DNA from: a virus
Lineage: Duplodnaviria; Heunggongvirae; Uroviricota; Caudoviricetes
Reading direction: 5' to 3' (one strand)
IMG/VR virus record: IMGVR_UViG_3300028805_000039
Location: 1 to 63,851 of that record
DNA length: 63,851 nt
Below are positions 939-44,038 of the stretch, in pieces (position 1 is the stretch's first letter; the number at the start of each line of letters is the position of its first letter). Below the pieces are notes generated by a model, which ran no database searches, was not told the origin of the DNA, and worked only from the letters and a program-made list of their open reading frames with translations. The position numbers and the translations under genes are program-made.

Positions 939-967
939 TTTGAAAATTTTAAAAAAATATTATATAA
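939..967 (+). promoter_or_regulatory. sigma70-like promoter TTGAAA-N17-TATAAT with an A7 tract in the spacer
   Basis: Exact 17-bp spacing. The same architecture recurs at least 12 times in the window. Confidence 0.6.
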
Positions 968-1021
968 TATATATGTAAGATAAAGAAAGGAATGATTTCC
1001 TATGTGCAGGTGTTTTAATTG

Positions 1022-1879
1022 ATGGATTATGCTGCTAAAAAATATATTGATAATTATAGAGATTGGTTTGTAAATGAAGATAAGTGTGGCTGGAAAGATA
1101 ACTTTATTATTGATGAAATAAAACGAGATAAACGACCAGATAAATGGGAAATTTATGCATCAAATTTAACAGGCGAACCTATTTATGATAATAATGGTAA
1201 TTTAATTAAAAAATCTAATAAAAAAAATAAAAAGGAGAATAATAATATGAATATGGATTTTGGTTTTGGAAAGATGTTTAATGGTATGTTTGCTCCCGTT
1301 GCTCATGGTTATGTTAAAATGGGTATGAACGGTGAAGTGGCTATTCGAGTTGGTAATGATTATAAAACCTTTGATATTAAGAGGATGAAACTTGTCAATT
1401 GTGATAATTTTGCTTTTGATATGGATGGTATGTTTTGGGTTGTTCCTACCTTTAAGGTTGAGTGCGGCGACATTATCATGGTAAATGGCAAGCCTCGTTG
1501 TGTAATTGAAGTTAAGGATAAGTCTATTAGAACTTTTTCTTATGAAAATTCTACTATTGATGAAATCATTCCTGAGCATCACGTTTTTATGGGTAAGACT
1601 TATTGTTATGGCAAAATTTTCAGTCCTTTTATGAATATGGATAAATCTGATAATATGATGTCTAATATGATGCAGATGGCTATGATGAGCCAGATGTTTG
1701 GCGGCAATAATTCTAATAATAATGTATTTATGGGAATGAATCCTATGGCAATGATGTTTATGATGAATAATAATAATGGTGGCAATATGTTTAGTGATAT
1801 GTTCGCCGGAGCTTTTAATTTTGGAGAAGATGAAACCAAGACTGATAAACTTGGTACTGCTGTTAAGGAGGATAAGTAA
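1022..1879 (+). CDS. hypothetical protein with a Met/Asn-rich low-complexity C-terminal region
   Basis: ORF 1019-1879 with a probable ATG at 1022 and an internal strong RBS/ATG at 1247. The C-terminus is roughly 25% Met (MMSNMMQMAMMSQMF...MNPMAMMFMM). Confidence 0.6.
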   Translation: MDYAAKKYIDNYRDWFVNEDKCGWKDNFIIDEIKRDKRPDKWEIYASNLTGEPIYDNNGNLIKKSNKKNKKENNNMNMDFGFGKMFNGMFAPVAHGYVKMGMNGEVAIRVGNDYKTFDIKRMKLVNCDNFAFDMDGMFWVVPTFKVECGDIIMVNGKPRCVIEVKDKSIRTFSYENSTIDEIIPEHHVFMGKTYCYGKIFSPFMNMDKSDNMMSNMMQMAMMSQMFGGNNSNNNVFMGMNPMAMMFMMNNNNGGNMFSDMFAGAFNFGEDETKTDKLGTAVKEDK

Positions 1880-1881
1880 AG

Positions 1882-2763
1882 ATGGGTGGAGGCAGTTGGA
1901 CTAGTTCGGCATATGATACTTATACCAAAAGTACGCGAGGAATGAGTGCGGCAGAATATACAACTGCCCACCTTTCTACTCAGGAAGTTTTTAAAGTTAA
2001 TGAACTTTCTCCTGTTCTTAATCCTTATAATGTTGTTAGAGCTTGTCATGATAGTGATGAGCATCCTAATACTCTTCCGGTTATTTTAGCCCTTGATGTA
2101 ACTGGTTCAATGGGCTCTGCGGCTCGTACTGTTAACCAGAAGTTAAATGAAATTATGACTAAAATTTATGAAAATCCCAATATGCCTGATGTAGAATTCT
2201 GTGTAATGGGTATTGGTGATTTAAGTTATGATGATGCTCCTATTCAAATGTCACAATTTGAAAGCGATATTCGTATCGCGGAGCAGAATGACCAGATTTA
2301 CTTTGAAGCAGGTGGCGGTGCAAATCGTTATGAAAGCTATACTGCTGCTTGGTATATGGGCTCTCGCCATTGTGATTTACATTGTTGGAATCGTGGTAAG
2401 AAAGGAATCATTATCACTCTTGGTGATGAATTGCCTAATCCATATCTTCCAAAGGGCATGCTTAATAAAGTAACTGGTGACCACTTACAGGCAGACGTCG
2501 AAACCCCTGAACTTTATAATGAAGTAATTGAGAAATTTAATGTATATCATATTGCTGTTAATGATCATCATAGTTCTTATATATATTATAAAGAAGATGG
2601 CATTGATAAAAAATGGAGCAAATTACTTGGAGATCATTATAGTGTAGAAACTATTAATAGTCTTCCTTTGAGAATTACTCAAATTATTGAGGAAAATATT
2701 GAGGGCAATACAGAAAATACCTCTGGTATTGTTTTTGATGAAAATAATGCTGTAAAATGGTAA
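1882..2763 (+). CDS. von Willebrand factor type A (vWA) domain protein
   Basis: A MIDAS-like DxTGS motif (ILALDVTGSMG) and a downstream ITLGDELPN motif typical of vWA folds. Confidence 0.7.
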   Translation: MGGGSWTSSAYDTYTKSTRGMSAAEYTTAHLSTQEVFKVNELSPVLNPYNVVRACHDSDEHPNTLPVILALDVTGSMGSAARTVNQKLNEIMTKIYENPNMPDVEFCVMGIGDLSYDDAPIQMSQFESDIRIAEQNDQIYFEAGGGANRYESYTAAWYMGSRHCDLHCWNRGKKGIIITLGDELPNPYLPKGMLNKVTGDHLQADVETPELYNEVIEKFNVYHIAVNDHHSSYIYYKEDGIDKKWSKLLGDHYSVETINSLPLRITQIIEENIEGNTENTSGIVFDENNAVKW

Positions 2764-2772
2764 AAATAAAAA

Positions 2773-2808
2773 ATAGCGGATTTCCAAAATTTGGAAATCC
2801 GCTATTTT
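2773..2808. terminator. bidirectional rho-independent terminator (AATAGCGGATTTCCAAA/TTTGGAAATCCGCTATT)
   Basis: Perfect 15-bp inverted repeat between the convergent genes 1882-2763(+) and 2810-3070(-), flanked by T/A runs. Confidence 0.7.
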
Positions 2809-2809
2809 C

Positions 2810-3070
2810 TTAACCATAAACATATGGTCCCCAATCACCTGGCACCCAATATGGGTCAACTGTTGGGGTTGGAGTTTGAATCGGCATAGGGGCTGGCTGA
2901 GCCTAAAACAACAAAGGCGGCTATGTCGGTATTGGAGTTTCAATAATTACAGGAGTAAAAGTTGTCACAGGAGGATCAATAACTGGTTCTCTAATATATA
3001 TATACCAATAAGCAGCAGCTCCTACTAAAATCACAAGGATAAGAATCGCAATAACTATATTTTTAAACAT
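2810..3070 (-). CDS. small signal-anchored proline-rich protein, two in-frame TAG (Gln) codons
   Basis: ATG at 3070 preceded by an AAGGG RBS. The product reads MFKNIVIAILILVILVGAAAYWYIY...PIPTQPPLLFQAQPAPMPIQTPTPT...GDWGPYVYG and ends at TAA 2810-2812. Continuous only if TAG is read as sense. Confidence 0.5.
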
Positions 3071-3143
3071 TACATTCACACCCTTTCTAATTAAATTTAA
3101 AAGTAAATATAACTTTTTTAATCTTATTTACCCAATCTTTTAT

Positions 3144-3172
3144 TTGAAAATATTAAAAAAATATTATATAAT
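3144..3172 (+). promoter_or_regulatory. sigma70-like promoter TTGAAA-N17(A7)-TATAAT
   Basis: Same consensus as 939-967. Confidence 0.6.
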
Positions 3173-3207
3173 ATTTATAGAAAATAAAGAAAAAGGAATT
3201 AATATTT

Positions 3208-3393
3208 ATGGAATGGAATGAAAAAATTAAAGAAGGAATGAAATTAATTGCCGCAGGATGTTTTGAAGAAGGTGGATTTGCCACTTGTCGAATGAGTAAA
3301 TGTCCTTTTGGAGATTATTGTTGGATTATCAAAAGAGAAAAAGAAGAATATGATAATGACTTAATGGAGCCTTTGTATTGGGATGAAATTTAA
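3208..3393 (+). CDS. small Cys-containing hypothetical protein
   Basis: 61-aa ORF downstream of a promoter and RBS. Confidence 0.5.
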   Translation: MEWNEKIKEGMKLIAAGCFEEGGFATCRMSKCPFGDYCWIIKREKEEYDNDLMEPLYWDEI

Positions 3394-3408
3394 AGGAGTT
3401 GATAGAAT

Positions 3409-4578
3409 ATGAAGAAAGTAAAAATTGTTGTTGGTGCCAATTATGGAGATGAAAGCAAAGGGCTGGTTACTCATCAGTTTTGTAAAGATGCTATACACAC
3501 TTATGATAATACTATTGTAATTTTTCATAATGGTTCTGCCCAGCGTGGGCATACCGTAGATTATAATCCTGATTTCCGCCATGTTTATCATCATTTTGGA
3601 TGCGGAACCGCAGAAGGCATTCCTACTTATTTCGCTGATACCTTTTGGGTTCATCCTATGGAATATTATCGAGAATATGGAGAACTTCTTCGTCAAAATA
3701 TTCATCCACCTATTACTCAATGTAGTCCAAAAGCAAAAGTAGTTACTCCATTTGATATGATTGTAGACCACGCAACAGAGGCTTATATTGGATGGCAGAA
3801 TGGAGAACGCGAGCATGGCTCTTGCGGTTATGGCACTTGGTGTGCTACTGATAGAGAATTTTTTGGACATAAAATCTATACCATAGAAGATTATCTTAAA
3901 GCAGAAAATAACACTAAACTTGGAGTAATGCTTCGTCTTACTTTTTATGATTGTTTAACATTATTGCAGAATATTCGTAATGTTGATTTAGATAAAATTC
4001 CTGAATATGCTGTGTATTTTAAAGATGAAACTCGTATTGATAATACAATTAATCATTTTATTGATGATTTAAAATTCTTTATATCACATAATGAGTTTTT
4101 TTCATTCGATAGTGTTTATTATATTTTTGATAATTTGATTTTTGAAGGAGCACAAGGTCTTGGCCTTGATAAAGATTGCGGAAAAGAATGGCACACTACT
4201 TCTTCTACTGGTTTGACAAATCCTTATAACATGTTAAAAGATAAAGATAATTTTAAAGCAGAAGTATGTTATGTCTCTCGTGCTTATAATACCCGACATG
4301 GAATTGGAGACCTTGAAGAAGAAACAACTAAATCTTCTATTAATAAAGATATGGAAGATAAAACTAATATTCATAATGAATTTCAAGGTAGTCTTCGTTA
4401 TGGATATATTGATGATGCTGAACGCGGAAAAAGAATTTCAAAAGATTATTCTATTGTTGAAAAAGATAATAGATTTTTTAGGACTGATGCTCTTACTCAT
4501 TGTAATGAATTTCCAGAAGTAAATCCTAAATTATATAATTATGCTAGTTTTAATCCATATAGTGTATTGAAAGGATAA
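3409..4578 (+). CDS. adenylosuccinate synthetase family protein (PurA/PurZ-like)
   Basis: N-terminal VVGANYGDESKG (PurA P-loop GDEGKGK-like) and NGSAQRGHTV (PurA GHT His motif). The 389-aa length is shorter than bacterial PurA, as is typical of phage PurZ. Confidence 0.6.
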   Translation: MKKVKIVVGANYGDESKGLVTHQFCKDAIHTYDNTIVIFHNGSAQRGHTVDYNPDFRHVYHHFGCGTAEGIPTYFADTFWVHPMEYYREYGELLRQNIHPPITQCSPKAKVVTPFDMIVDHATEAYIGWQNGEREHGSCGYGTWCATDREFFGHKIYTIEDYLKAENNTKLGVMLRLTFYDCLTLLQNIRNVDLDKIPEYAVYFKDETRIDNTINHFIDDLKFFISHNEFFSFDSVYYIFDNLIFEGAQGLGLDKDCGKEWHTTSSTGLTNPYNMLKDKDNFKAEVCYVSRAYNTRHGIGDLEEETTKSSINKDMEDKTNIHNEFQGSLRYGYIDDAERGKRISKDYSIVEKDNRFFRTDALTHCNEFPEVNPKLYNYASFNPYSVLKG

Positions 4579-4583
4579 ATTAC

Positions 4584-5243
4584 ATGACTAATTTTGTTAT
4601 GACTCGTTTTGGTGATGTTCTTTTTGGTCTTATTATTATTTTTAGTCTTTATAAATTTGGAATGACAATTTATCATTTAACATCATTTTATAACCATACA
4701 CATGGGCAAGCATATTTTACTAATGTAGGAACTACATTAAATTTTGAAGATCTGCCAAGACTTACTTTTAAACAATTTTTAAGTTTTTATAATATTAATC
4801 CTGAAAAATGGTTTATTATGCAAGGCACAAAATGGAACCATCATCCCACTAGAATTTATCAAAGCAGTGGGCAGCCCATTTGTTTTAAAACTGTTTTTGA
4901 TTATGTAAAATATATTAAATGGATTAAAAAGCAAGCTAAAAACAAAAAAGAAAAAGCCCGTGCTGAAAAACTTCAATCTATTGTTGATGATGTAAAAAAA
5001 GATATTAATAAAATTAATAAAGATTATGAAAATGTCCTTACTGAAAGCACTAAAACTTATTTACAAGTTGCTACTCGCCTTAAAGATGATATGAAATATT
5101 ATGTAGATATTAATGAAGTTAGTAGTATAGATACATCAAAATTATATAAAGGGGAACCTATATGTATCATTAATAGTTTGACTGGTAAAAGAAAATATTA
5201 TATTTGGGATGGAGAAAACTTTATCTTTGTTAAAATTTTTTAA
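4584..5243 (+). CDS. hypothetical protein
   Basis: 219-aa ORF with a hydrophobic N-terminus. Confidence 0.5.
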   Translation: MTNFVMTRFGDVLFGLIIIFSLYKFGMTIYHLTSFYNHTHGQAYFTNVGTTLNFEDLPRLTFKQFLSFYNINPEKWFIMQGTKWNHHPTRIYQSSGQPICFKTVFDYVKYIKWIKKQAKNKKEKARAEKLQSIVDDVKKDINKINKDYENVLTESTKTYLQVATRLKDDMKYYVDINEVSSIDTSKLYKGEPICIINSLTGKRKYYIWDGENFIFVKIF

Positions 5244-5246
5244 AAG

Positions 5247-5276
5247 GAATGGATATTAACCATTCCTTTTTTTAAT
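5247..5276 (+). terminator. rho-independent terminator (GGAATGG...CCATTCC + T7)
   Basis: Hairpin followed by a T-run immediately after the stop. Confidence 0.6.
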
Positions 5277-5291
5277 AAAAAGATTTTTTAT

Positions 5292-5320
5292 TTGAAAATT
5301 TATAAAAAATATTGTATAAT
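5292..5320 (+). promoter_or_regulatory. sigma70-like promoter TTGAAA-N17-TGtTATAAT (extended -10)
   Basis: Consensus match with 17-bp spacing. Confidence 0.6.
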
Positions 5321-5353
5321 ATTTATAGAAAATAAATAAAGGAGTTTTTATTT

Positions 5354-5539
5354 ATGTGGTATGCTTATAAACTTAATGACCAACAGGAATGGGTTAAAAT
5401 GAAAACTTTTGACAAACTTGAAGATTATAAAGCCTATGTTGAAACACATCGAGTAACTAATTCAATGTGCTCGAATAATGAAATTGATTTGCGCGGAAAG
5501 GCTTATAGCGAACGATGGGACAAAGCAGTAATGAATTAA
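5354..5539 (+). CDS. hypothetical protein
   Basis: 61-aa ORF. Confidence 0.5.
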   Translation: MWYAYKLNDQQEWVKMKTFDKLEDYKAYVETHRVTNSMCSNNEIDLRGKAYSERWDKAVMN

Positions 5540-5700
5540 TTCAAATAGAAATTGACCATGTCTTAAATAGCCAAAATGCGAATGAACAATTAAGGATTTT
5601 CTAGAAAGTTTTCCCAAAGCGTGAAATAATTGGAGTATCTATGGTGCCTGCTGATCCAGTAGGTTGGTTTATGACAATAACTTATAAAGTATTATACTAA
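5515..5700 (+). CDS. possible small protein (one TAG codon), GC-richer island
   Basis: The frame is open from 5488 to TAA 5698-5700 if TAG is read as sense. ATG candidates are 5515 or 5641 (the latter has a GGAG RBS). Overlaps the preceding gene. Confidence 0.25.
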
Positions 5701-5713
5701 GGAGTTGATAAAG

Positions 5714-6466
5714 ATGGCAGTTTATGCTTGCGCTGATTTGCATGGTTGTTACTGGGCATGGGAACAGATTAAGAATATTTTACAGCCAAATGATACATTA
5801 TATTTTTTAGGCGACGCAGCAGATAGAGGTCCTGATGGTTGGACTATTATGAAAGAATTATTGAACAATAGTCAAGTAATTTATTTAATTGGTAATCATG
5901 AACGAATGTTTCTTAATAATTGGGGAAGTTATGATGGACATGACCTTGAAAATTATCATCATTTAGATGATCATATTTGGAATTGGTATTGTAATGGTGG
6001 AGAAATTACCGATTCTCAATTTATTCAAGATTCTATCTCTGGCGAAGAAAAGGTTAGTTATATTAGACAATTAAATGACTTACCTTTTATAACAGTTTAT
6101 CATAATGAATTTAATGAAGACGTAGTTCTTTGCCATGCCGGATGTGACTATCATGATATTGATAAATTAACAGAAGAAGCAGCTATTTGGGACAGAACTC
6201 ATTATATATTTAATAAATGGGATGGCCCCAATAATGTTTATATTATTCATGGGCATACTCCTATTCCTCTACTTATCCAAGAGCAAGAAAAGTTTAACAG
6301 ATGGCATAGCCTTGGATATAGTATTCCAAAAGCCGAAGCACTTGAAGGAGCTTATTGGTATGCTGGCGGGCATAAGTGTTGTATTGATTGTGGGGCAGTA
6401 TTTACAGATCAAACAGTATTATTAAATCTTGATACATGGGAAGAAATTATAATTAATAAGGAGTAA
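5714..6466 (+). CDS. calcineurin-like metallophosphoesterase (Ser/Thr phosphatase / ApaH-like)
   Basis: Motifs ADLHG, GDAADRG and GNHE. AGGAG lies 9 nt before ATG 5714. Confidence 0.7.
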   Translation: MAVYACADLHGCYWAWEQIKNILQPNDTLYFLGDAADRGPDGWTIMKELLNNSQVIYLIGNHERMFLNNWGSYDGHDLENYHHLDDHIWNWYCNGGEITDSQFIQDSISGEEKVSYIRQLNDLPFITVYHNEFNEDVVLCHAGCDYHDIDKLTEEAAIWDRTHYIFNKWDGPNNVYIIHGHTPIPLLIQEQEKFNRWHSLGYSIPKAEALEGAYWYAGGHKCCIDCGAVFTDQTVLLNLDTWEEIIINKE

Positions 6467-6471
6467 AAATT

Positions 6472-6657
6472 ATGTGGGATCTTGTTGAAGAAATGTTGAA
6501 AACTATTGCTATTATACTTGGAATTGTACTTCTGTTTTGTTTTCCAGCTATGTGGCTTTGGAATTGGTTAATGCCATATATTTTTAATTTACCAACGTTA
6601 ACATTTGGACAGATGGGTGGCCTTTTGCTTTTAGCTTATTTATTTTTCCATGAATAA
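6472..6657 (+). CDS. small membrane protein
   Basis: 61 aa with two hydrophobic segments. Confidence 0.45.
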   Translation: MWDLVEEMLKTIAIILGIVLLFCFPAMWLWNWLMPYIFNLPTLTFGQMGGLLLLAYLFFHE

Positions 6658-6671
6658 GGAGGAACTATATA

Positions 6672-6941
6672 ATGAAAACTAAAAGAATGGATAGACATAG
6701 TTTTTATTGTATGAATTGTGGAGAAAAAGTTTATGAATTAATGAGACCGGTCAGCCATCAATATGGAAAACATCATCGTAAAGCATTATATTGTCCTTGG
6801 TGCAAGTTAACTGTTAATACGATAGAATGTCGTAATGACAATGAAGTTTATGAGTTTAAAGAAGCCTTCGCCGCCGGAGAATATAAAGAAGAATTAAAAG
6901 AATCTATTGATTTTATTAAAAATAATTATATGGAGTTGTGA
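6672..6941 (+). CDS. zinc-ribbon protein
   Basis: CMNCG...CPWC Cys pairs. Confidence 0.5.
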   Translation: MKTKRMDRHSFYCMNCGEKVYELMRPVSHQYGKHHRKALYCPWCKLTVNTIECRNDNEVYEFKEAFAAGEYKEELKESIDFIKNNYMEL

Positions 6942-6945
6942 TACT

Positions 6946-7431
6946 ATGACTACTTTATACATTATGGTTGGAGCTCCTGGTAGTGGAAAAAGTTATTTTG
7001 CTAAGAAATATCTCTTTGCTGGTAAACCTCATATTGTATATATTTCTCGTGATGAAGTTAGATATTCAATGATTAATGAAAAAGACTCTTATTTTAGTAA
7101 AGAAGATGATGTTTTTGCTGAATTTGTAAGGCGTATTAAATATCATATTGCTATTGGAGCTGATGCGGTCATTGCTGATGCTACTCACTTAAATTGGAAT
7201 AGTCGTCGTAAATTGCTTAATGCTTTAAATATCCTTAATGAAACAAATAATAATTTGGCTATTATTCCAGTTGTATTAAAACCAAATATTAATATTGTTT
7301 TAGAAAGGAATAATACTAGAGAAGGACGAGCCAATGTCCCAGAAGATGTAGTAAAAAGAATGTGGAATAATCAGACTTCTCCTAAAACCGATCCTTTTAA
7401 CTATACTGCAATAATGGAGGTAATTACATGA
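6946..7431 (+). CDS. P-loop kinase (AAA/zeta-toxin-like nucleotide or polynucleotide kinase)
   Basis: Walker A motif GAPGSGKS. ATG 6946 lies inside the longer track ORF 6907-7431. Confidence 0.55.
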   Translation: MTTLYIMVGAPGSGKSYFAKKYLFAGKPHIVYISRDEVRYSMINEKDSYFSKEDDVFAEFVRRIKYHIAIGADAVIADATHLNWNSRRKLLNALNILNETNNNLAIIPVVLKPNINIVLERNNTREGRANVPEDVVKRMWNNQTSPKTDPFNYTAIMEVIT

Positions 7432-7646
7432 TAATTACTACATTACTTTATATTTTTGCTACTATTGGAGTATTAAATACAATTACTGCTATTATTTTTT
7501 TAATCTATTTAATAGTAGATATAAATAACTATAAAGAATGGGAATATATAGAAGGGTATGGATTTAAAAATATTTGGAAAAATGAACGAAATGGAAATGA
7601 AGAGGAAATATCTGGAAGTAATCAAAATAATAGTAGCAAATGCTAA
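7428..7646 (+). CDS. small membrane protein
   Basis: 72 aa with a hydrophobic N-terminus. ATGA start overlaps the upstream stop. Confidence 0.45.
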   Translation: MIITTLLYIFATIGVLNTITAIIFLIYLIVDINNYKEWEYIEGYGFKNIWKNERNGNEEEISGSNQNNSSKC

Positions 7647-7805
7647 ACCAGAATCTTATACATTAAACTAGTTGCGGTGTGTTAATCAAATTTTAATGTA
7701 TGGTGCTAATACAACTCACCTTAAAGGATCTAATAATAGTTTTGGAATGGATGAAGGTTGGAAGGTAGATTATTTTCCAACTTCTTTTGTAAAGGATGAT
7801 AATGA

Positions 7806-8378
7806 ATGAATAAAATTTGGCTTTCTAGCGACTATCATTTCCAGCATGATAGAGAATTTATTTATAAACCAAGAGGATTCAATAGTGTAGATGAAATGAA
7901 TAATACTATTATTACAAATCATAATAATATTGTTGATAATGATGATGATGTATATTTACTTGGTGATTTAATGTTAGGTGGTCCTGATAAAATGGATACA
8001 GGACTTGAAATGATTAGAGCATTAAATGGGCGGCTCCATTTAGTGCGAGGAAATCATGATACTAATAAAAGATGGGAAGTATATGCTACACTTCCTAATG
8101 TAATAGAACAGAAAAATGCTATTTATTTAGATTATCATAAATATCATTTTTATATGAGCCATTATCCTACAATTACTAGCAATCTTGAAAAAGAAAGTCT
8201 TCATCAATGTACTATTAATCTATATGGACATACTCATCAACATAATTCTAATTTTTATATGGATATTCCATATATCTATCATGTTGGGCTTGATTCTCAT
8301 CATAATTGTTTAATTAATTTAGATGATGCTATTTTAGATATGAAACAAAAGGTGCAGGAGTGTTTTGATGAACTTTGA
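7806..8378 (+). CDS. metallophosphoesterase (YfcE/MPP family)
   Basis: Motifs SDYHF, GDLMLGG, GNHD and GHTH. Confidence 0.7.
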   Translation: MNKIWLSSDYHFQHDREFIYKPRGFNSVDEMNNTIITNHNNIVDNDDDVYLLGDLMLGGPDKMDTGLEMIRALNGRLHLVRGNHDTNKRWEVYATLPNVIEQKNAIYLDYHKYHFYMSHYPTITSNLEKESLHQCTINLYGHTHQHNSNFYMDIPYIYHVGLDSHHNCLINLDDAILDMKQKVQECFDEL

Positions 8379-8715
8379 AAAATTTTTTGATTTAATGCGG
8401 GAATCACGTTGTGGCCTTTGTGCTGAAAAAGATAAAGGTTGTAAAGGGTTTGATATTGCTGGTAAATGTAAAGATTTTAAATTAAAGCCTTTTTCAGATA
8501 GAATGAATATATACTATAAAGCTTGTTTTTGTTGTGAAAATTATTTTAATTGTGATGAAAAAGATAATGACAGTTTCAAATGCCATAATTATAAAAAATA
8601 TATCCCTAGATGTGATAAATGTGTTTTTACAAAAGGTATTTGTGGTTATCATGACACGCATGGAGAGTGTATTTCTTATAAACGTGATCCCCCTGATGGT
8701 GGATACTATGGATAA
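8365..8715 (+). CDS. Cys-rich hypothetical protein
   Basis: 116 aa with about 20 Cys residues. Confidence 0.5.
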   Translation: MMNFEKFFDLMRESRCGLCAEKDKGCKGFDIAGKCKDFKLKPFSDRMNIYYKACFCCENYFNCDEKDNDSFKCHNYKKYIPRCDKCVFTKGICGYHDTHGECISYKRDPPDGGYYG

Positions 8716-8878: not shown

Positions 8879-9076
8879 ATGATTTTACATTATACTATCT
8901 TATGGTTTGTTATGATGATTGCTGGTATATTAATGTATGAGCAACCATTAATTACTAAGGTAAAAGGAAAAATGCTTAAAGCTTTATAGCAAATAGGATG
9001 GATGATTATGTTTATTGCTATGCTAGGTTTTATGCATGGCGTATTAAGTCTTATTAAACTTATCCCTCCATTATAA
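8879..9076 (+). CDS. small membrane protein (one TAG=Gln codon)
   Basis: ATG 8879 after a GGAGAG RBS. The product MILHYTILWFVMMIAGILMYEQPLITKVKGKMLKAL-Q-QIGWMIMFIAMLGF... ends at TAA 9074-9076. Confidence 0.45.
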
Positions 9077-9082
9077 AAGAAA

Positions 9083-9115
9083 AAAGTCAATGGATTATTC
9101 CATTGACTTTTTTCT
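9083..9115 (+). terminator. rho-independent terminator (AGTCAATGG...CCATTGACT + T-run)
   Basis: Perfect 9-bp stem followed by TTTTTTCTTTTTTT. Confidence 0.65.
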
Positions 9116-9137
9116 TTTTTTATTATATAATAATCAT
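9102..9137 (+). promoter_or_regulatory. sigma70-like promoter TTGACT-N17-TATAAT embedded in the terminator tail
   Basis: The descending terminator arm supplies the -35 element. Same cassette design as at 27399-27454 and 43990-44038. Confidence 0.5.
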
Positions 9138-9164
9138 ATATAAAATAAAAAAGGAGTTCTAAAT

Positions 9165-13920: not shown

Positions 13921-13966
13921 ATTGAAAAACCAAGATAATATAATTTTTTTATATTATCTTGGTTTA
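13921..13966 (+). terminator. rho-independent terminator (AAAACCAAGATAATAT...ATATTATCTTGGTTT)
   Basis: Long perfect inverted repeat followed by a T-rich tract. Confidence 0.65.
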
Positions 13967-13975
13967 TTTTTATAT

Positions 13976-14004
13976 TGACAATTATATTTTTTTATTATAT
14001 AATA
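13976..14004 (+). promoter_or_regulatory. sigma70-like promoter TTGACA-N16/17-TATAAT
   Basis: Consensus hexamers upstream of the RNase H gene. Confidence 0.55.
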
Positions 14005-14091
14005 TTTATATATAAATAGATAGTTTTTTATTTTATCTCATATATATGATACAATAAAAAAAACGAAATGTCAAGTTAAGTAGGTGTAACA

Positions 14092-14823: not shown

Positions 14824-14852
14824 TTGACTTTAATTAAAAAATATGATATAAT
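14824..14852 (+). promoter_or_regulatory. sigma70-like promoter TTGACT-N17-TATAAT
   Basis: Consensus match. Confidence 0.55.
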
Positions 14853-20708: not shown

Positions 20709-22673
20709 ATGCGAGAATTAATTGATAAATTAAATTATTATATTAAAATGTATGATGAAGGAACTCCTGTAATTTCTGATAAAGAATATGATGATTTATA
20801 TTTTCAATTGGAAGAATTAGAAAATCAGTCTGGTATTTGTATGGCAAATTCTCCAACTTGTCATGTAGACTATTTTTCATTGAATAAATTAAAAAAAGTA
20901 AAACATTCTCATCCAATGTTATCATTGAATAAAACTAAATCTATTCAAGATATTTTAGATTTTAAAAATGATAAAGATGTTATTGCTATGTTGAAAATGG
21001 ATGGATTAACCTGTTCTCTTCGATATGAACAAGGAGTACTGGTTAGTGCTGAGACTCGTGGCAACGGCGAAATAGGAGAAGATATTACTCATAATATTAT
21101 TACAGTTAAATGTGTCCCAATAGAAATTCCATTTAAAAATACATTAGTTGTTGATGGAGAAGTTATTTGTACCTATAAAGATTTTGAACCATTTAGTGAT
21201 AAATTTGCCAATCCACGTAATTTTGCAGCTGGTAGTATTAGATTATTAAATAATGGAGAATGTGCTAACCGACATTTAACATTCATAGTTTGGGATGTTA
21301 TTCAAGGATTTGAAGATTGTAAAACATTAACTGAAAAATTATATAAAATTGATAGTTTAGGTTTTACTTTTGTCCCACATTTACATTGGTTTCCTGATAT
21401 GGAAGTTTCAGAGGGTAAATTTGATCATATTTCAAGACTTATTACTGATTGGGCTACAGGAGAAGATTTCCAATATCCATATGATGGATTAGTGTTTAAA
21501 TATAATGATTGTAATTATTATTCTTCTCTTGGAGAAACTGGTCATCATCCAAAAGGTGGATTAGCATTTAAGTTTTATGATGAAGAATATGAAACTAGAT
21601 TATTCAATATTGAATATACCATGGGTAAAACTGGAATTTTAACTCCAGTAGCAGAATTTGAACCAGTACATACTGATGATAGTACTATTGAGAAAGCTTC
21701 ACTTCATAATTTAAATATTATGAAATCACTTCTCGGCAATAATCCTTATCAAGGTCAGCATATTATTGTAGTTAAAATGAATCAAATTATCCCACAAATA
21801 GTTCGAGCAGATACAACTTTCCCACTTGTGCCAGTTGAATTTTTTAGATTGCCTCAAGTATGCCCAATTTGTGGAGAACCTACTATTATTAAAGATGATT
21901 TTCTTTATTGTAGTAATCCTAATTGTGAAGGTAAATTAATTAATAAATTAGATCATTTTGTAGGGAAAAAAGGTCTTGACATTAAAGGTTTGTCAAAGGC
22001 AACACTTCAAAAATTAATTAATTGGGAATGGGTTAATTCTATTTCTGATATTTTTGGATTATATCAATATCGTGATGAATGGTATAAAAAAGATGGTTTT
22101 GGAGTTAAATCTGTTGATAATATTCTTGAAGCTATAGAAAATAGTAAAGAATGCGAGCTATGGCAATTTATTTCTGCCCTTAGTATTCCATTAATTGGTA
22201 GTACATATGCCAAAGATATCGCTAGACATTGTGCTGGGTGGCTCCAGTTTATGGAATGTATTGGCCCTCATATGCTAAATAAAAATGGGTATAATTTCAC
22301 TCAATGGGATGGCTTTGGCCCAAATATGGATGCTTCATTACATAATTTTAATTACGATGAAGCAGATCAAATTGTAAATAAATATTTACATTTGAGGAAT
22401 ACTTTATTTACTATTCCAAAAGATGTTCAAATTATTAATTCTAATATAAATGGAATTAATTTCGTAATTACAGGAAAATTAAAAAAATATAAAAATCGTG
22501 ATGAATTAATTAATATTATTGAAAATAATGGTGGAAAAGTATTAAATTCTGTTACTAAAAATACTAATTATTTAATTAATAATGATATTAATAGTACATC
22601 ATCTAAAAATGTAAAAGCTAAAAGTCTTAGTATTCCGATTATTACAGAAGAACAATTTGACGCTTTACTTTGA
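20709..22673 (+). CDS. ligA: NAD-dependent DNA ligase (LigA) with C-terminal BRCT
   Basis: KMDGLTCSLRYE (KxDG adenylation motif), OB and Zn-finger regions, BRCT at the C-terminus. No TAG codons. Confidence 0.85.
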   Translation: MRELIDKLNYYIKMYDEGTPVISDKEYDDLYFQLEELENQSGICMANSPTCHVDYFSLNKLKKVKHSHPMLSLNKTKSIQDILDFKNDKDVIAMLKMDGLTCSLRYEQGVLVSAETRGNGEIGEDITHNIITVKCVPIEIPFKNTLVVDGEVICTYKDFEPFSDKFANPRNFAAGSIRLLNNGECANRHLTFIVWDVIQGFEDCKTLTEKLYKIDSLGFTFVPHLHWFPDMEVSEGKFDHISRLITDWATGEDFQYPYDGLVFKYNDCNYYSSLGETGHHPKGGLAFKFYDEEYETRLFNIEYTMGKTGILTPVAEFEPVHTDDSTIEKASLHNLNIMKSLLGNNPYQGQHIIVVKMNQIIPQIVRADTTFPLVPVEFFRLPQVCPICGEPTIIKDDFLYCSNPNCEGKLINKLDHFVGKKGLDIKGLSKATLQKLINWEWVNSISDIFGLYQYRDEWYKKDGFGVKSVDNILEAIENSKECELWQFISALSIPLIGSTYAKDIARHCAGWLQFMECIGPHMLNKNGYNFTQWDGFGPNMDASLHNFNYDEADQIVNKYLHLRNTLFTIPKDVQIINSNINGINFVITGKLKKYKNRDELINIIENNGGKVLNSVTKNTNYLINNDINSTSSKNVKAKSLSIPIITEEQFDALL

Positions 22674-22698
22674 CTTTTCAAAAAAAATTTATTATAAT
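22670..22698 (+). promoter_or_regulatory. sigma70-like promoter TTGACT-N17(A8)-TATAAT
   Basis: Consensus match. Confidence 0.55.
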
Positions 22699-22729: not shown

Positions 22730-22924
22730 ATGAAAAAGAAAGAACTCAAAAACTTAGCTGAAAAGATTGCTAAATGTGAGTATGTAATAGAAAATAGTAA
22801 AGATGCGAGCGTAATAAACGCCGCACAAGAAGAAATTATGCGTCTTTCCAGTAAAGTTCATGATTTCTAGGATATAGATACCATAGATGAATTAGTCTAG
22901 AACCTATTGAAAAAAATGTCTTGA
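22730..22924 (+). CDS. small hypothetical protein (two TAG codons)
   Basis: AAGGAAGAG RBS, 64 aa, ends at TGA 22922-22924. Confidence 0.45.
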
Positions 22925-22949
22925 CAATAAAAAAATTTTTTCGTATAAT
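22921..22949 (+). promoter_or_regulatory. sigma70-like promoter TTGACA-N17-TATAAT
   Basis: Consensus match. Confidence 0.55.
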
Positions 22950-24760: not shown

Positions 24761-24766
24761 AATAAT

Positions 24767-24794
24767 TGATTTTTATAAAAAAATATTGTATAAT
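24767..24794 (+). promoter_or_regulatory. sigma70-like promoter TTGATT-N16/17-TGtTATAAT
   Basis: Consensus match. Confidence 0.5.
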
Positions 24795-27398: not shown

Positions 27399-27436
27399 AA
27401 CCCTTTGGCATTTCTTGCCAAAGGGTTGATTTTTTT
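27399..27436 (+). terminator. rho-independent terminator (AACCCTTTGGC...GCCAAAGGGTT + T7)
   Basis: Perfect hairpin whose tail contains the -35 TTGATT of the next promoter. Confidence 0.7.
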
Positions 27437-27454
27437 AAAAAAATATGTTATAAT
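27426..27454 (+). promoter_or_regulatory. sigma70-like promoter TTGATT-N17(A7)-TATAAT
   Basis: Consensus match. Confidence 0.55.
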
Positions 27455-33277: not shown

Positions 33278-33404
33278 ATCTTATTAGAAGATTTTGAAAT
33301 AATAAGAAGGACACAATGGGATTTTTAAATCTCCTCGCGACGAAAACAACTGGCAAAACCGTATTCCAAAATTAAAAATTGTTTTGGAAATTTTTAGAGT
33401 AAAT

Positions 33405-33470
33405 AGCGGTTACCAAAATTTTCCAGTAAAATTAATAAGATGGAAAATTTTGGTAACCGCTATTTCTATT
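33405..33470. terminator. large hairpin (24-bp perfect stem AAATAGCGGTTACCAAAATTTTCC, 17-nt loop)
   Basis: Perfect long inverted repeat directly upstream of a TTGACA promoter. It shares the AATAGCGG core with the 2773 terminator. Confidence 0.6.
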
Positions 33471-33499
33471 TGACAATATTAAATTATTATGATAAAATA
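33471..33499 (+). promoter_or_regulatory. sigma70-like promoter TTGACA-N17-TAAAAT
   Basis: Consensus hexamers. Confidence 0.5.
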
Positions 33500-35237: not shown

Positions 35238-35417
35238 ATGGAAATTGATATAAATCAAGAAATATTAGATGAAGTAAATATATTATTACATAATGGATTA
35301 GTTTAGCTTTTAAATGATACTGGAATAAGTTTTCCGGCATTGGCATTTATAACACAAAGTATAGTATCTGCCGTTGATGAAGCACAAGAAAAACTTGACG
35401 AAGAAGAAAAAAAGTGA
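35238..35417 (+). CDS. small acidic hypothetical protein (one TAG)
   Basis: 59 aa, ends at TGA 35415-35417. Confidence 0.4.
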
Positions 35418-35455
35418 TATAATATAATAAATAAATAATAAAAGGAGTTTTTAGT

Positions 35456-39926: not shown

Positions 39927-40005
39927 TTAAAGAAATAAAAAGAAAAAGCTAAATATAGTGATAAACGAAAATTTTATACTATATTTAGTGGAGGAATATA
40001 TAGAT

Positions 40006-42276: not shown

Positions 42277-42752
42277 GATATGCTGGGATTATAAAAAATG
42301 ACGTCGCTGCTGGAAAAGGTGTTTGCGTCACATTCTTTGTCCAAGGATGTGACGCACATTGCCCTGGATGCCATAATCCAGAAACTTGGGATTTTGATGG
42401 TGGATATGAATTTACACAAAACACAATTAATTCAATTATTAATGCTTTAAATGCGAATGGAGTTTAGCGTAATTTGTGCATTATGGGTGGAGAACCATTA
42501 CATGAACGTAATTAGTTTTTAGTACAGCTTTTAATACAAGAAGTTAAAAAAGTTTATCCTGATATAAAAATATATTTATGGACAGGATATATCTATGAGG
42601 ATTTAATTGAAAAACACGAAAAAATATTGTAGAATATATTATCGGAAATAGATGTATTAATTGATGGACCTTTTATCCAAGAGCAAAGAGATATTACTCT
42701 TGCTATGAGAGGTTCTAGAAATCAACGAATTATAAATTTAAAGGAAAAATAA
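42273..42752 (+). CDS. nrdG: anaerobic RNR activating enzyme NrdG (radical SAM), three TAG codons
   Basis: Cys cluster GCDAHCPGCHNPETW and a GGEPL motif. ATGA overlap with the nrdD stop. Confidence 0.7.
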
Positions 42753-42753
42753 A

Positions 42754-43128
42754 ATGGAAGAAAAATCATACGGACAAAGAGATATTCCAGATATTATTAT
42801 TAATTTTTAGGGATATAGTTATAATTTAAAATCTTATTATTAGAAATTTACTTGTATCCACAAAACAAATAAACGTAGTAAGTGGATTATAAAAGTGGCC
42901 GTTTTACCTGAATATTTAAGAGAATCTCTTTTTGAAAGATATGTAGATGTAACAATTAAAGAGATCCATAGGATGGTAGAGACTAATGAAGATATTGAAT
43001 ATACCTATAATTTATATAAACCTAAAATTAAAATAATAGAATATCAAGATTGCACTATTGATGAACCAGTATCTTATAAAATTGTTATTACTGGTCGTAT
43101 TTTAGAAAAAAAGGAGATACAAATATGA
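42754..43128 (+). CDS. hypothetical protein (two TAG codons)
   Basis: 124 aa; joins track ORF 42895-43128. Confidence 0.4.
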
Positions 43129-43466
43129 TTATTACACTTTGTGGAAGTACTAGATTTAAAAATGAGTATGAAGAAGTAGCAAAAAAATTAGCTCTTGACG
43201 GACATTGCGTATTAAGTGTTAATATGTATTCTCATGCAGATAATATTGAATTAACACAAGAACAAAAAATTTAGTTAGATAATGCTCATAAACAAAAAAT
43301 TAGTATTAGTGATGCTATTTTTGTTATTAATAAAGATGGTTATATTGGAGAAAGTACTTTTAGTGAAATTGATTGGGCTCAACGTATGAAAAAAGAGATT
43401 TATTTTCTTGAAGATATCAATCAAAAAGATGATGAAAATAAAACAGAAAAAGCTGAGGGTAACTAA
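43125..43466 (+). CDS. nucleoside 2-deoxyribosyltransferase-like protein (degenerate), one TAG
   Basis: MIITLCGSTRF...ISDAIFVINKDGYIGESTFSEIDWA resembles the NDT/Rcl Rossmann-like fold. Confidence 0.4.
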
Positions 43467-43469
43467 TTT

Positions 43470-43985
43470 ATGAATATATATTTAGCTGGACCAATTTTTT
43501 TCTATGGTGATTATTTAAGAAATATTGAATGGGCTAATAAAATTAGATAGGCATTTCCTGATGTCTATCTGTATAGTCCAGTAGAAAATACTGATATAAA
43601 TGGTGTAGAGGGCAAAAAAAAGTTTGCCGGCTCACAAGAAATTGCTAATGGAGATAATAGTCGTCTTGATATGACTGATGTATTGATTGCTTGTATTGAT
43701 GGTGATGTACTTCCTTCTGGCACTTGCGCTGAAATTGGTAAATTTCATGAAAAGGTTATGCGTGGCGATAATAAATATATTATTGGTATTTGCACTGATA
43801 CTCGTTAGTGCTATAATACTCATAGTGCTGAAAAAGATATGGGTGGAGCTGCTAGCTTGGGTGAGTAGCAATATAGCTATCAAAATCTTTATGTGACAGG
43901 TTTAATTAAACAAGCTGGAACATTAGTGTATAATATTGATGAAGTTATTGAAATTTTAAAAGAAATTCATAATAGATTTAATTAA
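43470..43985 (+). CDS. nucleoside 2-deoxyribosyltransferase family protein (four TAG codons)
   Basis: Hallmark N-terminus MNIYLAGPIFF and a downstream acidic catalytic region. Confidence 0.6.
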
Positions 43986-43989
43986 AAAG

Positions 43990-44020
43990 ATAGAGTAAGA
44001 ATATAATTCTTACTCTATTT
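43990..44020 (+). terminator. rho-independent terminator (AGAGTAAGAAT...ATTCTTACTCT + T-run) overlapping the next -35
   Basis: Perfect hairpin followed by ATTTGACTTTTTT. Confidence 0.65.
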
Positions 44021-44038
44021 GACTTTTTTAAAAAAATA
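44010..44038 (+). promoter_or_regulatory. sigma70-like promoter TTGACT-N17(A7)-TAAACT
   Basis: Same architecture as the other promoters, with a weaker -10. Confidence 0.45.

What the first reader, a model, noticed from the sequence alone, without database searches (positions are those of the whole stretch)
939..44038. Rigid promoter architecture TTGAYW-N17-TATAAT with an A6-8 tract at fixed spacer positions, repeatedly fused to upstream terminators
At least 12 plus-strand sites share the same layout (939, 3144, 5292, 9102, 13976, 14824, 22670, 22921, 24767, 27426, 33471 and 44010), and one lies on the minus strand (52048-52076). Each has a near-consensus -35, an exactly 17-bp spacer containing AAAAAAATAT, and TATAAT, often with an extended -10 TG. 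In several cases (903-967, 5247-5320, 9083-9137, 27399-27454, 43990-44038) the rho-independent terminator of the upstream gene ends in ...TTGAYTTTTTT, so the terminator T-run is simultaneously the -35 and spacer of the next promoter. This is a compact insulating terminator-promoter cassette.
Basis: seen in the sequence. Interest (0 to 1): 0.5.

Follow-up and report, generated by a model that had tools for sequence, protein, structure and literature searches.

The report
Host-type phage promoters fused to terminators
About fifteen near-identical bacterial-type promoters, half of them placed just after or overlapping the previous gene's terminator, divide this uncultured gut Clostridia phage genome into short transcription units; this is a clean example of a known kind of signal, not a new mechanism.

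Summary
The sites are real and far beyond chance: 10 exact matches to TTGAHW-N12-TNT-NN-TATAAT against 0.15 expected. Some details were overstated. Only 8 of the 13 claimed sites carry A6-7+TAT, 3 lack TATAAT, and several coordinates are off by 1 to 9 nt. I added sites at 35395(+) and 14074(-).

The window is part of an uncultured phage that reads TAG as a sense codon. It carries replication and nucleotide-metabolism genes.

In 810 kb of related phage loci, matching on the two hexamers alone gives 158 sites with a 17-bp spacer on the gene strand. Other spacings give 0-4, and the opposite strand gives 4. In those unselected spacers T-17 is 94%, T-15 is 96% and G-14 is 76%, which matches the Firmicutes "TRTG/-16" extended -10. 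The spacers also have a T-rich then A-rich middle, an ATATAT discriminator and a purine 7 nt after the -10.

The same 29-mer lies in a chromosomal intergenic region of Ruminococcus flavefaciens FD-1. The best reading is strong promoters for the host's primary sigma factor.

Eight window sites follow a terminator hairpin, and three overlap it. In public sequences the hairpin end piles up exactly at the -35.

This is a new member of a known kind, of modest interest.

The parts
940..968 (+). Promoter TTGAAA-N17-TATAAT, spacer ATTTTAAAAAAATATTA; in front of genes 1019-2763, which have no in-frame TAG
904..934 (+). Terminator hairpin of gene 545-913; the stem ends 5 nt before the -35 at 940
3144..3172 (+). 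Promoter TTGAAA-N17-TATAAT with A7TAT; 29-nt leader to a small ORF at 3208, then an adenylosuccinate-synthetase-like gene
5292..5320 (+). Promoter TTGAAA-N17-TATAAT with A6TAT; 27-nt leader to the ORF at 5354
5242..5270 (+). Terminator hairpin after gene 4584-5243; ends 21 nt before the -35 at 5292, so it is adjacent rather than fused
9103..9131 (+). Promoter TTGACT-N17-TATAAT, T-tract variant (spacer TTTTTCTTTTTTTATTA); 27-nt leader to gene 9165
9075..9118 (+). Terminator hairpin whose 3' arm contains the -35 TTGACT and whose T-run is the promoter spacer; a true overlap
13975..14003 (+). Promoter TTGACA-N17-TATAAT (12 of 12 hexamer matches), T-tract variant; in front of the RNase H gene at 14092
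13927..13965 (+). Terminator hairpin ending 9 nt before the -35 at 13975; it is followed by a T-run on both strands
14046..14074 (-). Convergent promoter TTGACA-N17-TATCAT (T8 tract) facing the 13975 promoter; no ORF follows it, so it would give a short antisense RNA ending at hairpin 13965-13927
14824..14852 (+). Promoter TTGACT-N17-TATAAT with A6TATG, starting 1 nt after the stop codon of gene 14538-14822; serves the gyrB-gyrA-ligase unit
22670..22698 (+). Promoter TTGACT-N17-TATAAT with an A8 run; the ligase stop codon TGA lies inside the -35
22921..22949 (+). Promoter TTGACA-N17-TATAAT (12 of 12), with the A7 run displaced 3 nt upstream; in front of gene 23003
24766..24794 (+). Promoter TTGATT-N17-TATAAT with A7TAT; 30-nt leader to a small HTH regulator-like gene at 24831
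27426..27454 (+). Promoter TTGATT-N17-TATAAT, spacer T7A7TATGT; in front of the DnaB-primase-RecJ unit
27399..27427 (+). Terminator hairpin CCCTTTGGCA/TGCCAAAGGG abutting the -35 (gap 0); its U-tract is TTGATTTTTTT
33470..33498 (+). Promoter TTGACA-N17-TAAAAT with TATG but no A-run; in front of a small ORF and an SF1 helicase gene
33401..33465 (+). Long terminator hairpin (-37 kcal/mol for the folded window) ending 4 nt before the -35 at 33470
35395..35423 (+). Promoter TTGACG-N17-TATAAT with A7 and GTG (TG at -15/-14); 26-nt leader to the PolIII-alpha gene at 35456.
44019..44047 (+). Promoter-like site TTGACT-N17-TAAACT (weak -10) with T6A7TATG; in front of a small ORF, a permease gene and a repeat-rich protein gene
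43988..44020 (+). Terminator hairpin ending about 2 nt before or into the -35 at 44019
52048..52076 (-). Promoter-like site TTGACT-N17-TATCCT (weak -10) with A7TATG; in front of the YcaO-domain gene 52025-50250
52087..52125 (-). Terminator hairpin after gene 55252-52127; ends 10 nt before the -35 at 52076
42607..42635 (+). Weak candidate TTGAAA-N17-TAGAAT with A6TATTG inside the nrdG coding sequence; membership uncertain

Best explanation
These are strong promoters of the bacterial primary-sigma type (sigma70/sigmaA), which the phage most likely uses to recruit its host's RNA polymerase. The host is probably a Clostridia species such as a Ruminococcus or Oscillospiraceae relative.

The full motif is about 46 nt:
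- -35 TTGAYW
- a spacer of exactly 17 bp, made of a T-rich stretch, then an A-rich (sometimes T) homopolymer run ending at -18, then T-17 W-16 T-15 G/T-14, which is the Firmicutes 'TRTG / -16 region' extended -10
- -10 TATAAT
- an ATATAT discriminator
- a purine start 7 nt after the -10
- an A-rich leader, usually 25-30 nt, ending in a strong Shine-Dalgarno sequence.

Inferred mechanism: sigma region 4 reads the -35, and regions 3.0 and 2.4 read TRTG and the -10. The homopolymer spacer gives the DNA geometry that sets the two elements at the optimal 17 bp.

About half of the sites sit directly after the previous gene's intrinsic terminator. In three cases the U-tract-encoding T-run is also the -35 and the T-rich spacer. 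Each unit therefore ends and the next begins within about 100 nt.

Shown: sequence conservation, spacing, strand bias, position relative to genes, and presence of the motif in a host-type chromosome. Inferred: which polymerase is used, the actual start sites, termination efficiency, and the role of the A-tract.
For: Enrichment and separation from background in the window:
- 10 exact matches against 0.15 expected.
- PWM scores of 22.6-32 bits against at most 16.1 in shuffles.
- 14 + strand matches at N17 against 0-3 at any other spacing.

Related phage loci found through GyrA:
- A PWM score of 18 or more marks 225 sites, all but 3 on the gene strand.
- Hexamers alone give 158 unique N17 sites on the gene strand, against 0, 2, 4 and 1 for N15, N16, N18 and N19, and 4 on the opposite strand.

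Positions not used for selection, in those relatives and in wider public hits:
- T-17 94%, T-15 96%, G-14 76%.
- A 56-75% at spacer positions 6-11.
- T 63-76% just after the -35.
- ATATAT discriminator.
- Purine 90-93% at the position 7 nt after the -10.

Published work agrees:
- TRTG is described as the Firmicutes form of the extended -10.
- Natural spacers are described as T-tract, low-signal region, AT-tract, then the extended -10 (Ex) region (PMC12641261).
- AT-rich spacers raise promoter activity, and sigma70 senses position -18 (PMC2613000; PMC3130263).

Host link:
- The same 29-mer pattern hits mainly Clostridia MAGs.
- In the cultured Ruminococcus flavefaciens FD-1 it lies in a chromosomal intergenic region between cellular genes, including Cthe_2159, a MIF-like gene and a Cel124-dockerin gene.
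- Other hits on contigs filed under bacteria precede tRNA-like sequences.

Gene context:
- Leaders are 25-30 nt to SD+ATG at 10 of 14 sites.
- No sigma factor or RNA polymerase was detected in the 40-odd window proteins scanned.

Terminators:
- 8 adjacent hairpins in the window.
- In public sites the hairpin 3' ends pile up at the -35: 20% against 5.4% at random positions, and 35 of 50 fall within -2 to +1.
Against: - There is no transcript data, so starts and stops are predictions.
- The host is unknown, and MAG bin labels are unreliable. Several hits sit on 150-195 kb contigs that look like mis-binned phage.
- The window is only part of a genome probably twice this size (inferred from related contigs of up to 183 kb), so a phage sigma factor or polymerase modifier elsewhere cannot be excluded.
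- Sites 44019 and 52076 have poor -10 hexamers and may need an activator.
- In this window G-14 is present at only 6 of 15 sites.
- The A-run is a softer preference in relatives: 43% have A5 or longer. Other phage-like contigs use the same frame with a different, C-rich spacer. The A-tract may therefore partly reflect lineage history rather than polymerase preference.
- The 12-kb block of large genes on the - strand (52127-63813) has no member of the family.
Confidence: 0.8

Rival explanations
1. The sites are promoters, but they are read by a phage-encoded sigma factor or by host polymerase modified by a phage protein. The lineage-specific spacer (T-run, A-run, TAT) would be the discriminating contact.
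For: - Spacer and discriminator are conserved well beyond the two hexamers.
- Other phage-like contigs keep the same frame but carry a different conserved spacer, TTGACAAAnCCCCACAnnnTGTGGTATAAT. One contig (L219) carries both types, as if they were promoter classes.
- Only part of the genome is in the window.
Against: - The hexamers plus TRTG equal the primary-sigma consensus of Firmicutes (PMC12641261).
- The identical 29-mer form occurs in a Ruminococcus flavefaciens chromosome next to cellular genes, and in front of tRNA-like sequences on contigs filed under bacteria.
- No sigma or RNA polymerase domain was found in the window proteins scanned.
Confidence: 0.07
2. The sites are host-polymerase promoters, and in addition the fixed homopolymer run in the spacer is an operator for a DNA-binding protein that times expression. 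A candidate is the small HTH protein encoded at 24831-25196, or a host nucleoid protein that prefers A-tracts.
For: - The A-run or T-run ends at the same spacer position (-18) at 9 of 15 sites.
- HTH regulator-like genes lie directly behind two of the promoters. One has a PHROG 'transcriptional regulator' hit at E = 2e-5.
- Sites 44019 and 52076 keep the spacer but have poor -10 hexamers.
Against: - A and T runs substitute for each other at the same position, which suggests a structural rather than a base-specific reading.
- The run is only a 56-75% preference in relatives.
- The general T-tract then AT-tract layout is seen in ordinary bacterial spacers and raises activity without any extra factor (PMC12641261).
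- There is no inverted or direct repeat typical of operators beyond TnAn.
Confidence: 0.1
3. The similarity comes from duplication of one cassette (a repeat or a mobile insert) rather than from selection for promoter function.
For: - Sites 3144, 5292 and 24766 share about 55-60 nt, including the leader ATWTTATAGAAAATAA.
- Identical 29-mers, some with similar leaders, recur several times within single public contigs such as L221 and L286.
Against: - Similarity stops at the -35 on the upstream side (information about 0 bits).
- Conservation follows exactly the positions polymerase contacts.
- Sites are always co-oriented with genes and at a fixed distance from SD+ATG.
- The N17 and strand bias persist in relatives whose GyrA is only 33-60% identical.
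Confidence: 0.03

Closest known systems
Firmicutes sigmaA promoters with the '-16 region' / TRTGn extended -10 (Voskuil & Chambliss; summarised in PMC12641261 and listed in the references of PMC2613000)
   Same: - TTGACA-like -35, 17-bp spacer, T-17 R-16 T-15 G-14 n TATAAT, and a purine start about 7 nt downstream.
- T-17 and T-15 are near-invariant here: all window sites except 35395, which has A at -17, and 94-96% of relatives.
   Different: - In this window G-14 is often T (TATT at 7 of 15 sites).
- Position -16 is A or T rather than strictly a purine.
- Spacing is far more rigid than in bacterial compilations: 158 sites at 17 bp against 6 at 16 or 18 bp, whereas 44-50% of E. coli promoters have 17 bp (PMC2613000).
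Four-region organisation of bacterial promoter spacers: T-rich tract, low-signal region, AT-tract, then the extended -10 (Ex) region (PMC12641261)
   Same: The order T-run, then A-run, then TWTG matches the phage consensus TTGAYTTTTwwAAAAAwTWTGn.
   Different: The tracts here are long pure homopolymers (T5-7, A6-8) with a fixed end at -18, and there is no GC-enriched middle region. This looks like an idealised, high-information version of the general layout.
Strong early promoters of lytic phages read by unmodified host polymerase (T5 PN25/P26, T7 A1-A3, SPO1 early genes; my own knowledge, plus the abstract of PMC13401047 for SPO1 and sigmaA)
   Same: - Many near-consensus promoters with 17-bp AT-rich spacers.
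- Sequence conserved beyond the hexamers, both in the spacer and downstream.
- All co-oriented with early or replication gene blocks.
   Different: - The phage here is uncultured and reads TAG as a sense codon.
- The same promoter type precedes both TAG-free and TAG-rich genes.
- No conserved A/T-rich UP-like block lies upstream of the -35.
Adjacent intrinsic terminator and promoter units, and re-initiation by polymerase that stays on the DNA after termination (PMC6978380)
   Same: A hairpin plus U-tract immediately precedes a same-sense promoter. That paper states that re-initiation should depend on terminator-promoter distance.
   Different: Here the distance is 0-10 nt, or the elements overlap, as a recurrent design. 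Whether polymerase hand-over occurs is untested.
TAG-recoded (code 15) gut phages predicted to infect Eubacteriales, such as phAss-1 at 136 kb (PMC10607447)
   Same: - Large uncultured phage with in-frame TAG in many replication and structural genes.
- Clostridia host inferred.
   Different: - No nucleotide match to any GenBank phage, and the best GyrA match is about 40% identical.
- The parts of that paper I read (abstract, genome-analysis and host-prediction sections) say nothing about promoters.

Membership tests
sigma70/sigmaA -35/-10 promoter | -35 hexamer close to TTGACA | tested here: met
   TTGA is invariant and position 5 is C, T or A. Four to six of six positions match at all 15 sites.
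sigma70/sigmaA -35/-10 promoter | -10 hexamer close to TATAAT | tested here: met
   TATAAT is exact at 11 of 15 sites. The other four are TAAAAT, TATCAT, TAAACT and TATCCT.
sigma70/sigmaA -35/-10 promoter | Spacer of 17 +/- 1 bp | tested here: met
   Exactly 17 bp at all sites. N17 is strongly preferred in the window (14 against 0-3) and in relatives (158 against 0-4).
sigma70/sigmaA -35/-10 promoter | Located upstream of genes and co-oriented with them | tested here: met
   Fourteen of 15 sites precede an SD+start on the same strand, with leaders of 16-82 nt and mostly 25-30 nt. In relatives 222 of 225 sites lie on the gene strand.
sigma70/sigmaA -35/-10 promoter | Transcription starts at a purine about 7 nt downstream of the -10 | not testable with these tools
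   The sequence is consistent with this: Y-R at -1/+1, and a purine in 90-93% of unselected related sites. No RNA data are available.
sigma70/sigmaA -35/-10 promoter | Recognised by the host primary-sigma holoenzyme | not testable with these tools
   Indirect only. The identical architecture occurs in the Ruminococcus flavefaciens FD-1 chromosome, and no sigma or RNA polymerase gene was found in the window.
Extended -10 / TRTGn (-16 region) promoter | T-17, R-16, T-15, G-14 immediately upstream of the -10 | tested here: inconclusive
   - Window: T-17 at 14 of 15 sites (35395 has A), T-15 at all 15, A at -16 in most, and G-14 at only 6 of 15.
- Relatives: T-17 94%, T-15 96%, G-14 76%, strict TRTG 43%.
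UP-element-containing promoter | Conserved A/T-rich block at -40 to -60 | tested here: not met
   There is no positional information upstream of the -35 in the window sites or in 252 public sites.
Intrinsic (rho-independent) terminator | GC-containing stem-loop followed by a T-run, at the 3' end of a gene | tested here: met
   Eight hairpins sit directly upstream of promoters, each just after a stop codon. Terminator-like sites number 12-15 per 20 kb against 6-7 in shuffles.
Intrinsic (rho-independent) terminator | Actual transcript release at the U-tract | not testable with these tools
   Needs 3'-end mapping or in vitro termination assays.

The most novel reading that the evidence does not exclude
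The zero-gap or overlapping terminator-promoter junction is not just compact packing. It is selected so that polymerase which has just released its RNA at the U-tract is already sitting on the next -35 and spacer, and re-initiates without leaving the DNA. This would be a hand-over device that keeps host polymerase on the phage genome. The junction recurs across a large clade of uncultured 130-200 kb Clostridia phages, with the hairpin 3' end placed within about 2 nt of the -35. A related point: the same promoter type drives TAG-free and TAG-rich genes, so timing would be left to the genetic-code switch rather than to promoter classes.
Probability: 0.12. Interest if true: 0.6.

Novelty: new member of a known kind. 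Interest (0 to 1): 0.27.

Why it matters
- It gives a usable promoter model for a large, uncultured clade of gut and rumen phages. The model has 46 nt, a strict 17-bp spacing, a TRTG-type extended -10, an ATATAT discriminator and a 25-30 nt leader.
- The model helps define transcription units and points to a Firmicutes/Clostridia host.
- The same promoter type precedes genes with and without in-frame TAG. That is relevant to the idea that stop-codon recoding, rather than promoter switching, times late protein production.
- The fused terminator-promoter cassettes are compact natural insulator parts that could be tried in Clostridia synthetic biology.
- None of this changes current understanding of bacterial transcription.

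Tried and rejected
- Megablast of 50 kb of the window against GenBank phages found no match. A GyrA protein search gave only relatives of about 40% identity, so no cultured relative exists to borrow transcript data from.
- tRNA and Rfam scans of the window found nothing.
- The generic sigma70 consensus scan is uninformative in this 29% GC DNA: 127-152 sites found against 131-143 expected. Only the extended architecture stands out.
- PWM scanning of relatives is circular for the spacer, so I replaced it with a hexamer-only selection and with flanks that were not used for selection.
- My first hairpin criterion, folding up to +12, produced artefactual stem ends at +10 and +11. I redid it with a GC-pair requirement and a window ending at the -35.
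- I considered a crAss-like phage with a virion polymerase, prompted by the large ORFs on the - strand and the TAG recoding. I dropped the idea because the promoters are TTGACA/TATAAT type rather than Bacteroidetes type, and the large proteins have no PHROG match.
- I checked for a UP element and found none.
- Chance in AT-rich DNA is rejected.
- I ran no further search on host assignment, because the pattern scan and the R. flavefaciens locus already addressed it.

Full report
**What the window is.** The window is 63,851 bp at 29% GC.
- It has no tRNA genes and no Rfam matches.
- Reading TAG as a sense codon raises the DNA in ORFs of 100 aa or more from 42.9 kb to 67.5 kb. It also joins fragments into long genes.
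- Genes between 166 and 8715, and gyrB/gyrA, have essentially no in-frame TAG. Most others have 1-27.
- Pfam identifies these products: an adenylosuccinate-synthetase-like protein, PhoH, a multidomain endolysin, RNase H, GIY-YIG, AAA_24, a Toprim (primase-like) protein, an SF1 helicase, guanylate kinase, NrdD and NrdG, a deoxyribosyltransferase, a xanthine/uracil permease, a radical-SAM protein and a YcaO protein.
- From reading the translated sequences, without a database test, I also recognise GyrB, GyrA, an NAD-dependent ligase, DnaB, RecJ and PolIII-alpha.
- No GenBank phage matches at the DNA level. The best GyrA match is about 40% identical.
- IMG/VR holds many relatives on contigs of up to 183 kb.
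- The window is therefore part of a large, uncultured, TAG-recoded phage of an anaerobe. It is comparable in type to the recoded gut phages predicted to infect Eubacteriales (PMC10607447).

- All 13 claimed sites are present, with small coordinate corrections. '44010' is really 44019.
- The exact pattern TTGAHW-N12-TNT-NN-TATAAT occurs 10 times against 0.15 expected.
- AAAAAATATKNTA occurs 9 times against 0.72 expected.
- A PWM from the sites scores them at 22.6-32 bits. The rest of the window reaches at most 14.4, and Markov shuffles reach at most 16.1.
- Leaving each site out in turn keeps 12 of 13 at 17 bits or more.
- With relaxed hexamers the + strand has 14 matches at a 17-bp spacing and 0-3 at any spacing from 14 to 20.
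- A low-stringency sigma70 scan shows no enrichment in this AT-rich DNA. The signal lies in the extended architecture.
- I found two more sites: 35395(+) before the PolIII-alpha gene, and 14074(-). There is also a weak candidate at 42607.
A6-7+TAT is present at 8 of its 13 sites. Sites 9103 and 13975 (and 14074) carry a T7-8 run at the same place. Three sites lack TATAAT. TG at -15/-14 occurs at 6 of 15 sites.

**Anatomy.** Aligning the sites shows invariant TTGA, a T at the second spacer position, T at -17 and -15, and a homopolymer run ending at -18 in 9 of 15 sites.
- Downstream the sequence reads ATWTAT-R, followed by an A-rich leader.
- Leaders to SD+ATG are 25-30 nt at 10 of 14 sites.
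- Nothing is conserved upstream of the -35.
- Sites are packed tightly against genes. The -35 at 14824 starts 1 nt after a stop codon. The ligase stop codon TGA lies inside the -35 at 22670.

**Comparative test.** GyrA retrieved 49 related loci.
- The PWM finds 225 sites in them at 18 bits or more, all but 3 on the gene strand.
- That test is circular for the spacer, so I selected sites by hexamers alone in 810 kb of relatives.
  - N17 on the gene strand gives 158 unique sites.
  - N15, N16, N18 and N19 give 0, 2, 4 and 1.
  - The opposite strand at N17 gives 4.
- In these unselected spacers T-17 is 94%, T-15 is 96%, G-14 is 76%, A is 56-75% at spacer positions 6-11, and T is 63-76% next to the -35.
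- The base 7 nt after the -10 is a purine in 93%.
- The same holds for flanks of 252 unique sites found in public viral and bacterial collections with the 29-mer pattern.
  - The discriminator reads ATATAT.
  - A purine occupies the predicted +1 in 90%.
  - AA occupies +3 and +4.
  - An A-rich leader follows.
- Clearly TAG-recoded relatives carry the sites, and so do relatives that are already well covered by ORFs under the standard code.

**What it is.** T-17, R-16, T-15, G-14, n, TATAAT is the '-16 region' or TRTGn extended -10 typical of Firmicutes primary-sigma promoters (PMC12641261; references in PMC2613000).
- The order T-tract, AT-tract, extended -10 is the general spacer organisation reported across bacteria. 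It was shown to raise promoter strength (PMC12641261).
- AT-rich spacers and position -18 are known to matter to sigma70 (PMC2613000; PMC3130263).

**Host link.** The 29-mer pattern hits mainly Clostridia MAGs from animal guts. Many hits lie on 150-195 kb contigs that are probably mis-binned phage.
- It also occurs in the cultured Ruminococcus flavefaciens FD-1, in a 47% GC chromosomal region.
  - There it lies between cellular genes: DUF711, APH, Cthe_2159, a MIF-like gene and a Cel124-dockerin gene.
  - It is upstream of the last two.
- On other contigs filed under bacteria it precedes tRNA-like sequences.
- No sigma or polymerase domain appears among the window proteins scanned.
- The best explanation is that these are strong promoters for the host's sigmaA holoenzyme (confidence 0.8).
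- The 17-bp rigidity is greater than in bacterial compilations, where 44-50% of promoters have 17 bp. That is expected for promoters selected for maximal strength.

**Terminator fusion.** Eight sites have a hairpin just upstream.

| Hairpin | Strand | Position relative to the -35 |
|---|---|---|
| 904-934 | + | gap 5 nt |
| 5242-5270 | + | gap 21 nt |
| 9075-9118 | + | contains the -35 and part of the spacer |
| 13927-13965 | + | gap 9 nt |
| 27399-27427 | + | gap 0 |
| 33401-33465 | + | gap 4 nt |
| 43988-44020 | + | gap about 2 nt |
| 52125-52087 | - | gap 10 nt |

- In 247 public sites, 20% have a GC-containing hairpin ending within -14 to +5 of the -35.
  - Thirty-five of those 50 end between 2 nt upstream of the -35 and its second T.
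  - Random positions give 5.4%.
- An earlier, noisier criterion gave 28% against 4%.
- The fused cassette is thus a recurrent, position-specific design in which TTGAYTTTTT serves as the U-tract.
- In this window it applies strictly to three sites and loosely to eight.
- Six promoters (3144, 14824, 22670, 22921, 24766, 35395) have no terminator upstream, so read-through from the preceding unit is likely there.

**Rivals.**
- A phage sigma factor or a modified polymerase remains possible.
  - The genome is incomplete.
  - Other phage-like contigs use the same frame with a distinct C-rich spacer, and L219 carries both types.
  - The chromosomal Ruminococcus example and the consensus identity argue against it.
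- A regulator binding the homopolymer run is possible as an added layer.
  - Small HTH genes follow two promoters.
  - Sites 44019 and 52076 keep the spacer but have weak -10 hexamers.
  - A-runs and T-runs are interchangeable, which suggests a structural role.
- Pure duplication is unlikely. Similarity ends at the -35 and tracks the positions polymerase contacts.
- Chance is excluded.

**Limits.**
- There is no RNA evidence, so starts, termination and polymerase identity are inferred.
- The block of large genes on the - strand (52127-63813) has terminators but no family member. Another route of transcription must serve it.

**Verdict.** The promoter and terminator-promoter interpretation is supported.
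- It is a new member of a known kind: Firmicutes-type extended -10 promoters in a phage.
- The most novel reading still open is that the zero-gap junction promotes polymerase hand-over after termination (compare PMC6978380). I give that about 0.12.

Noticed in passing
window 9165-63813 (contrast 166-8715 and 15929-20368): In-frame TAG codons occur in most genes, up to 27 per gene. Reading TAG as sense raises ORF coverage from 42.9 to 67.5 kb. The leftmost 9 kb and gyrB/gyrA are TAG-free. The same promoter type precedes both TAG-free and TAG-rich units. No suppressor tRNA lies in the window.
   Followed up: partly
window 13975-14003 (+) and 14046-14074 (-): Two near-consensus promoters face each other about 100 bp apart, upstream of the RNase H gene, with predicted starts near 14010 and 14039. 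The - strand promoter has no ORF. It would give a short antisense RNA that covers the + strand promoter and ends at the bidirectional hairpin 13927-13965. The pair is conserved in relatives L028 and L005.
   Followed up: partly
window 48225-52025: A radical-SAM protein (48225-49472), a 247-aa protein with a Cys-rich C-terminus (49480-50223) and a convergent YcaO-domain protein (50250-52025, - strand, in 19% GC DNA) sit together. This may be a peptide-modification (RiPP-like) cluster in a phage.
   Followed up: no
window 44273-45511: A xanthine/uracil permease family membrane protein (Pfam E = 7e-50) is encoded in the phage, directly behind the 44019 promoter-like site.
   Followed up: no
window 8716-8815: An unusually GC-rich stretch for this genome follows gene 8365-8715. 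It contains the hairpin GACGCTGAGGCGAAAGTCTCGGCGTC. There is no Rfam match at gathering threshold.
   Followed up: no
L001, L013, L036 (GyrA match regions): The GyrA match spans about 3.25 kb instead of 2.35 kb in three relatives. This suggests an intron, intein or homing-endonuclease insertion in gyrA.
   Followed up: no
L219, L281 (contigs filed under bacterial MAGs, phage-like): A second promoter family, TTGACAAAnCCCCACAnnnTGTGGTATAAT, uses the same 17-bp frame. It is repeated many times per contig, and in L219 it occurs alongside the A-tract type. These may be two temporal classes.
   Followed up: no
L186, L210, L238, L246, L247 (rabbit-gut Clostridia MAG contigs): The identical promoter TTGAAATTTATAAAAAAATATGTTATAAT is followed by a conserved palindrome, TTGAAATTGAAAGTGAAAATCATTTTCAATTTCA, and then a gene starting MDRNNYNTKQRDEIVEFF. 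This looks like an operator-controlled cellular promoter of the same architecture.
   Followed up: no
window 52127-63813 (- strand): Three very large proteins (1041, 938 and 1525 aa) lie in this block. The two that were scanned (1041 and 938 aa) have no PHROG match, and the 1525-aa one was not scanned. No promoter of this family lies upstream of any of them. Terminator hairpins at 55340-55375 and 58955-58975 are not followed by a recognisable -35/-10.
   Followed up: partly
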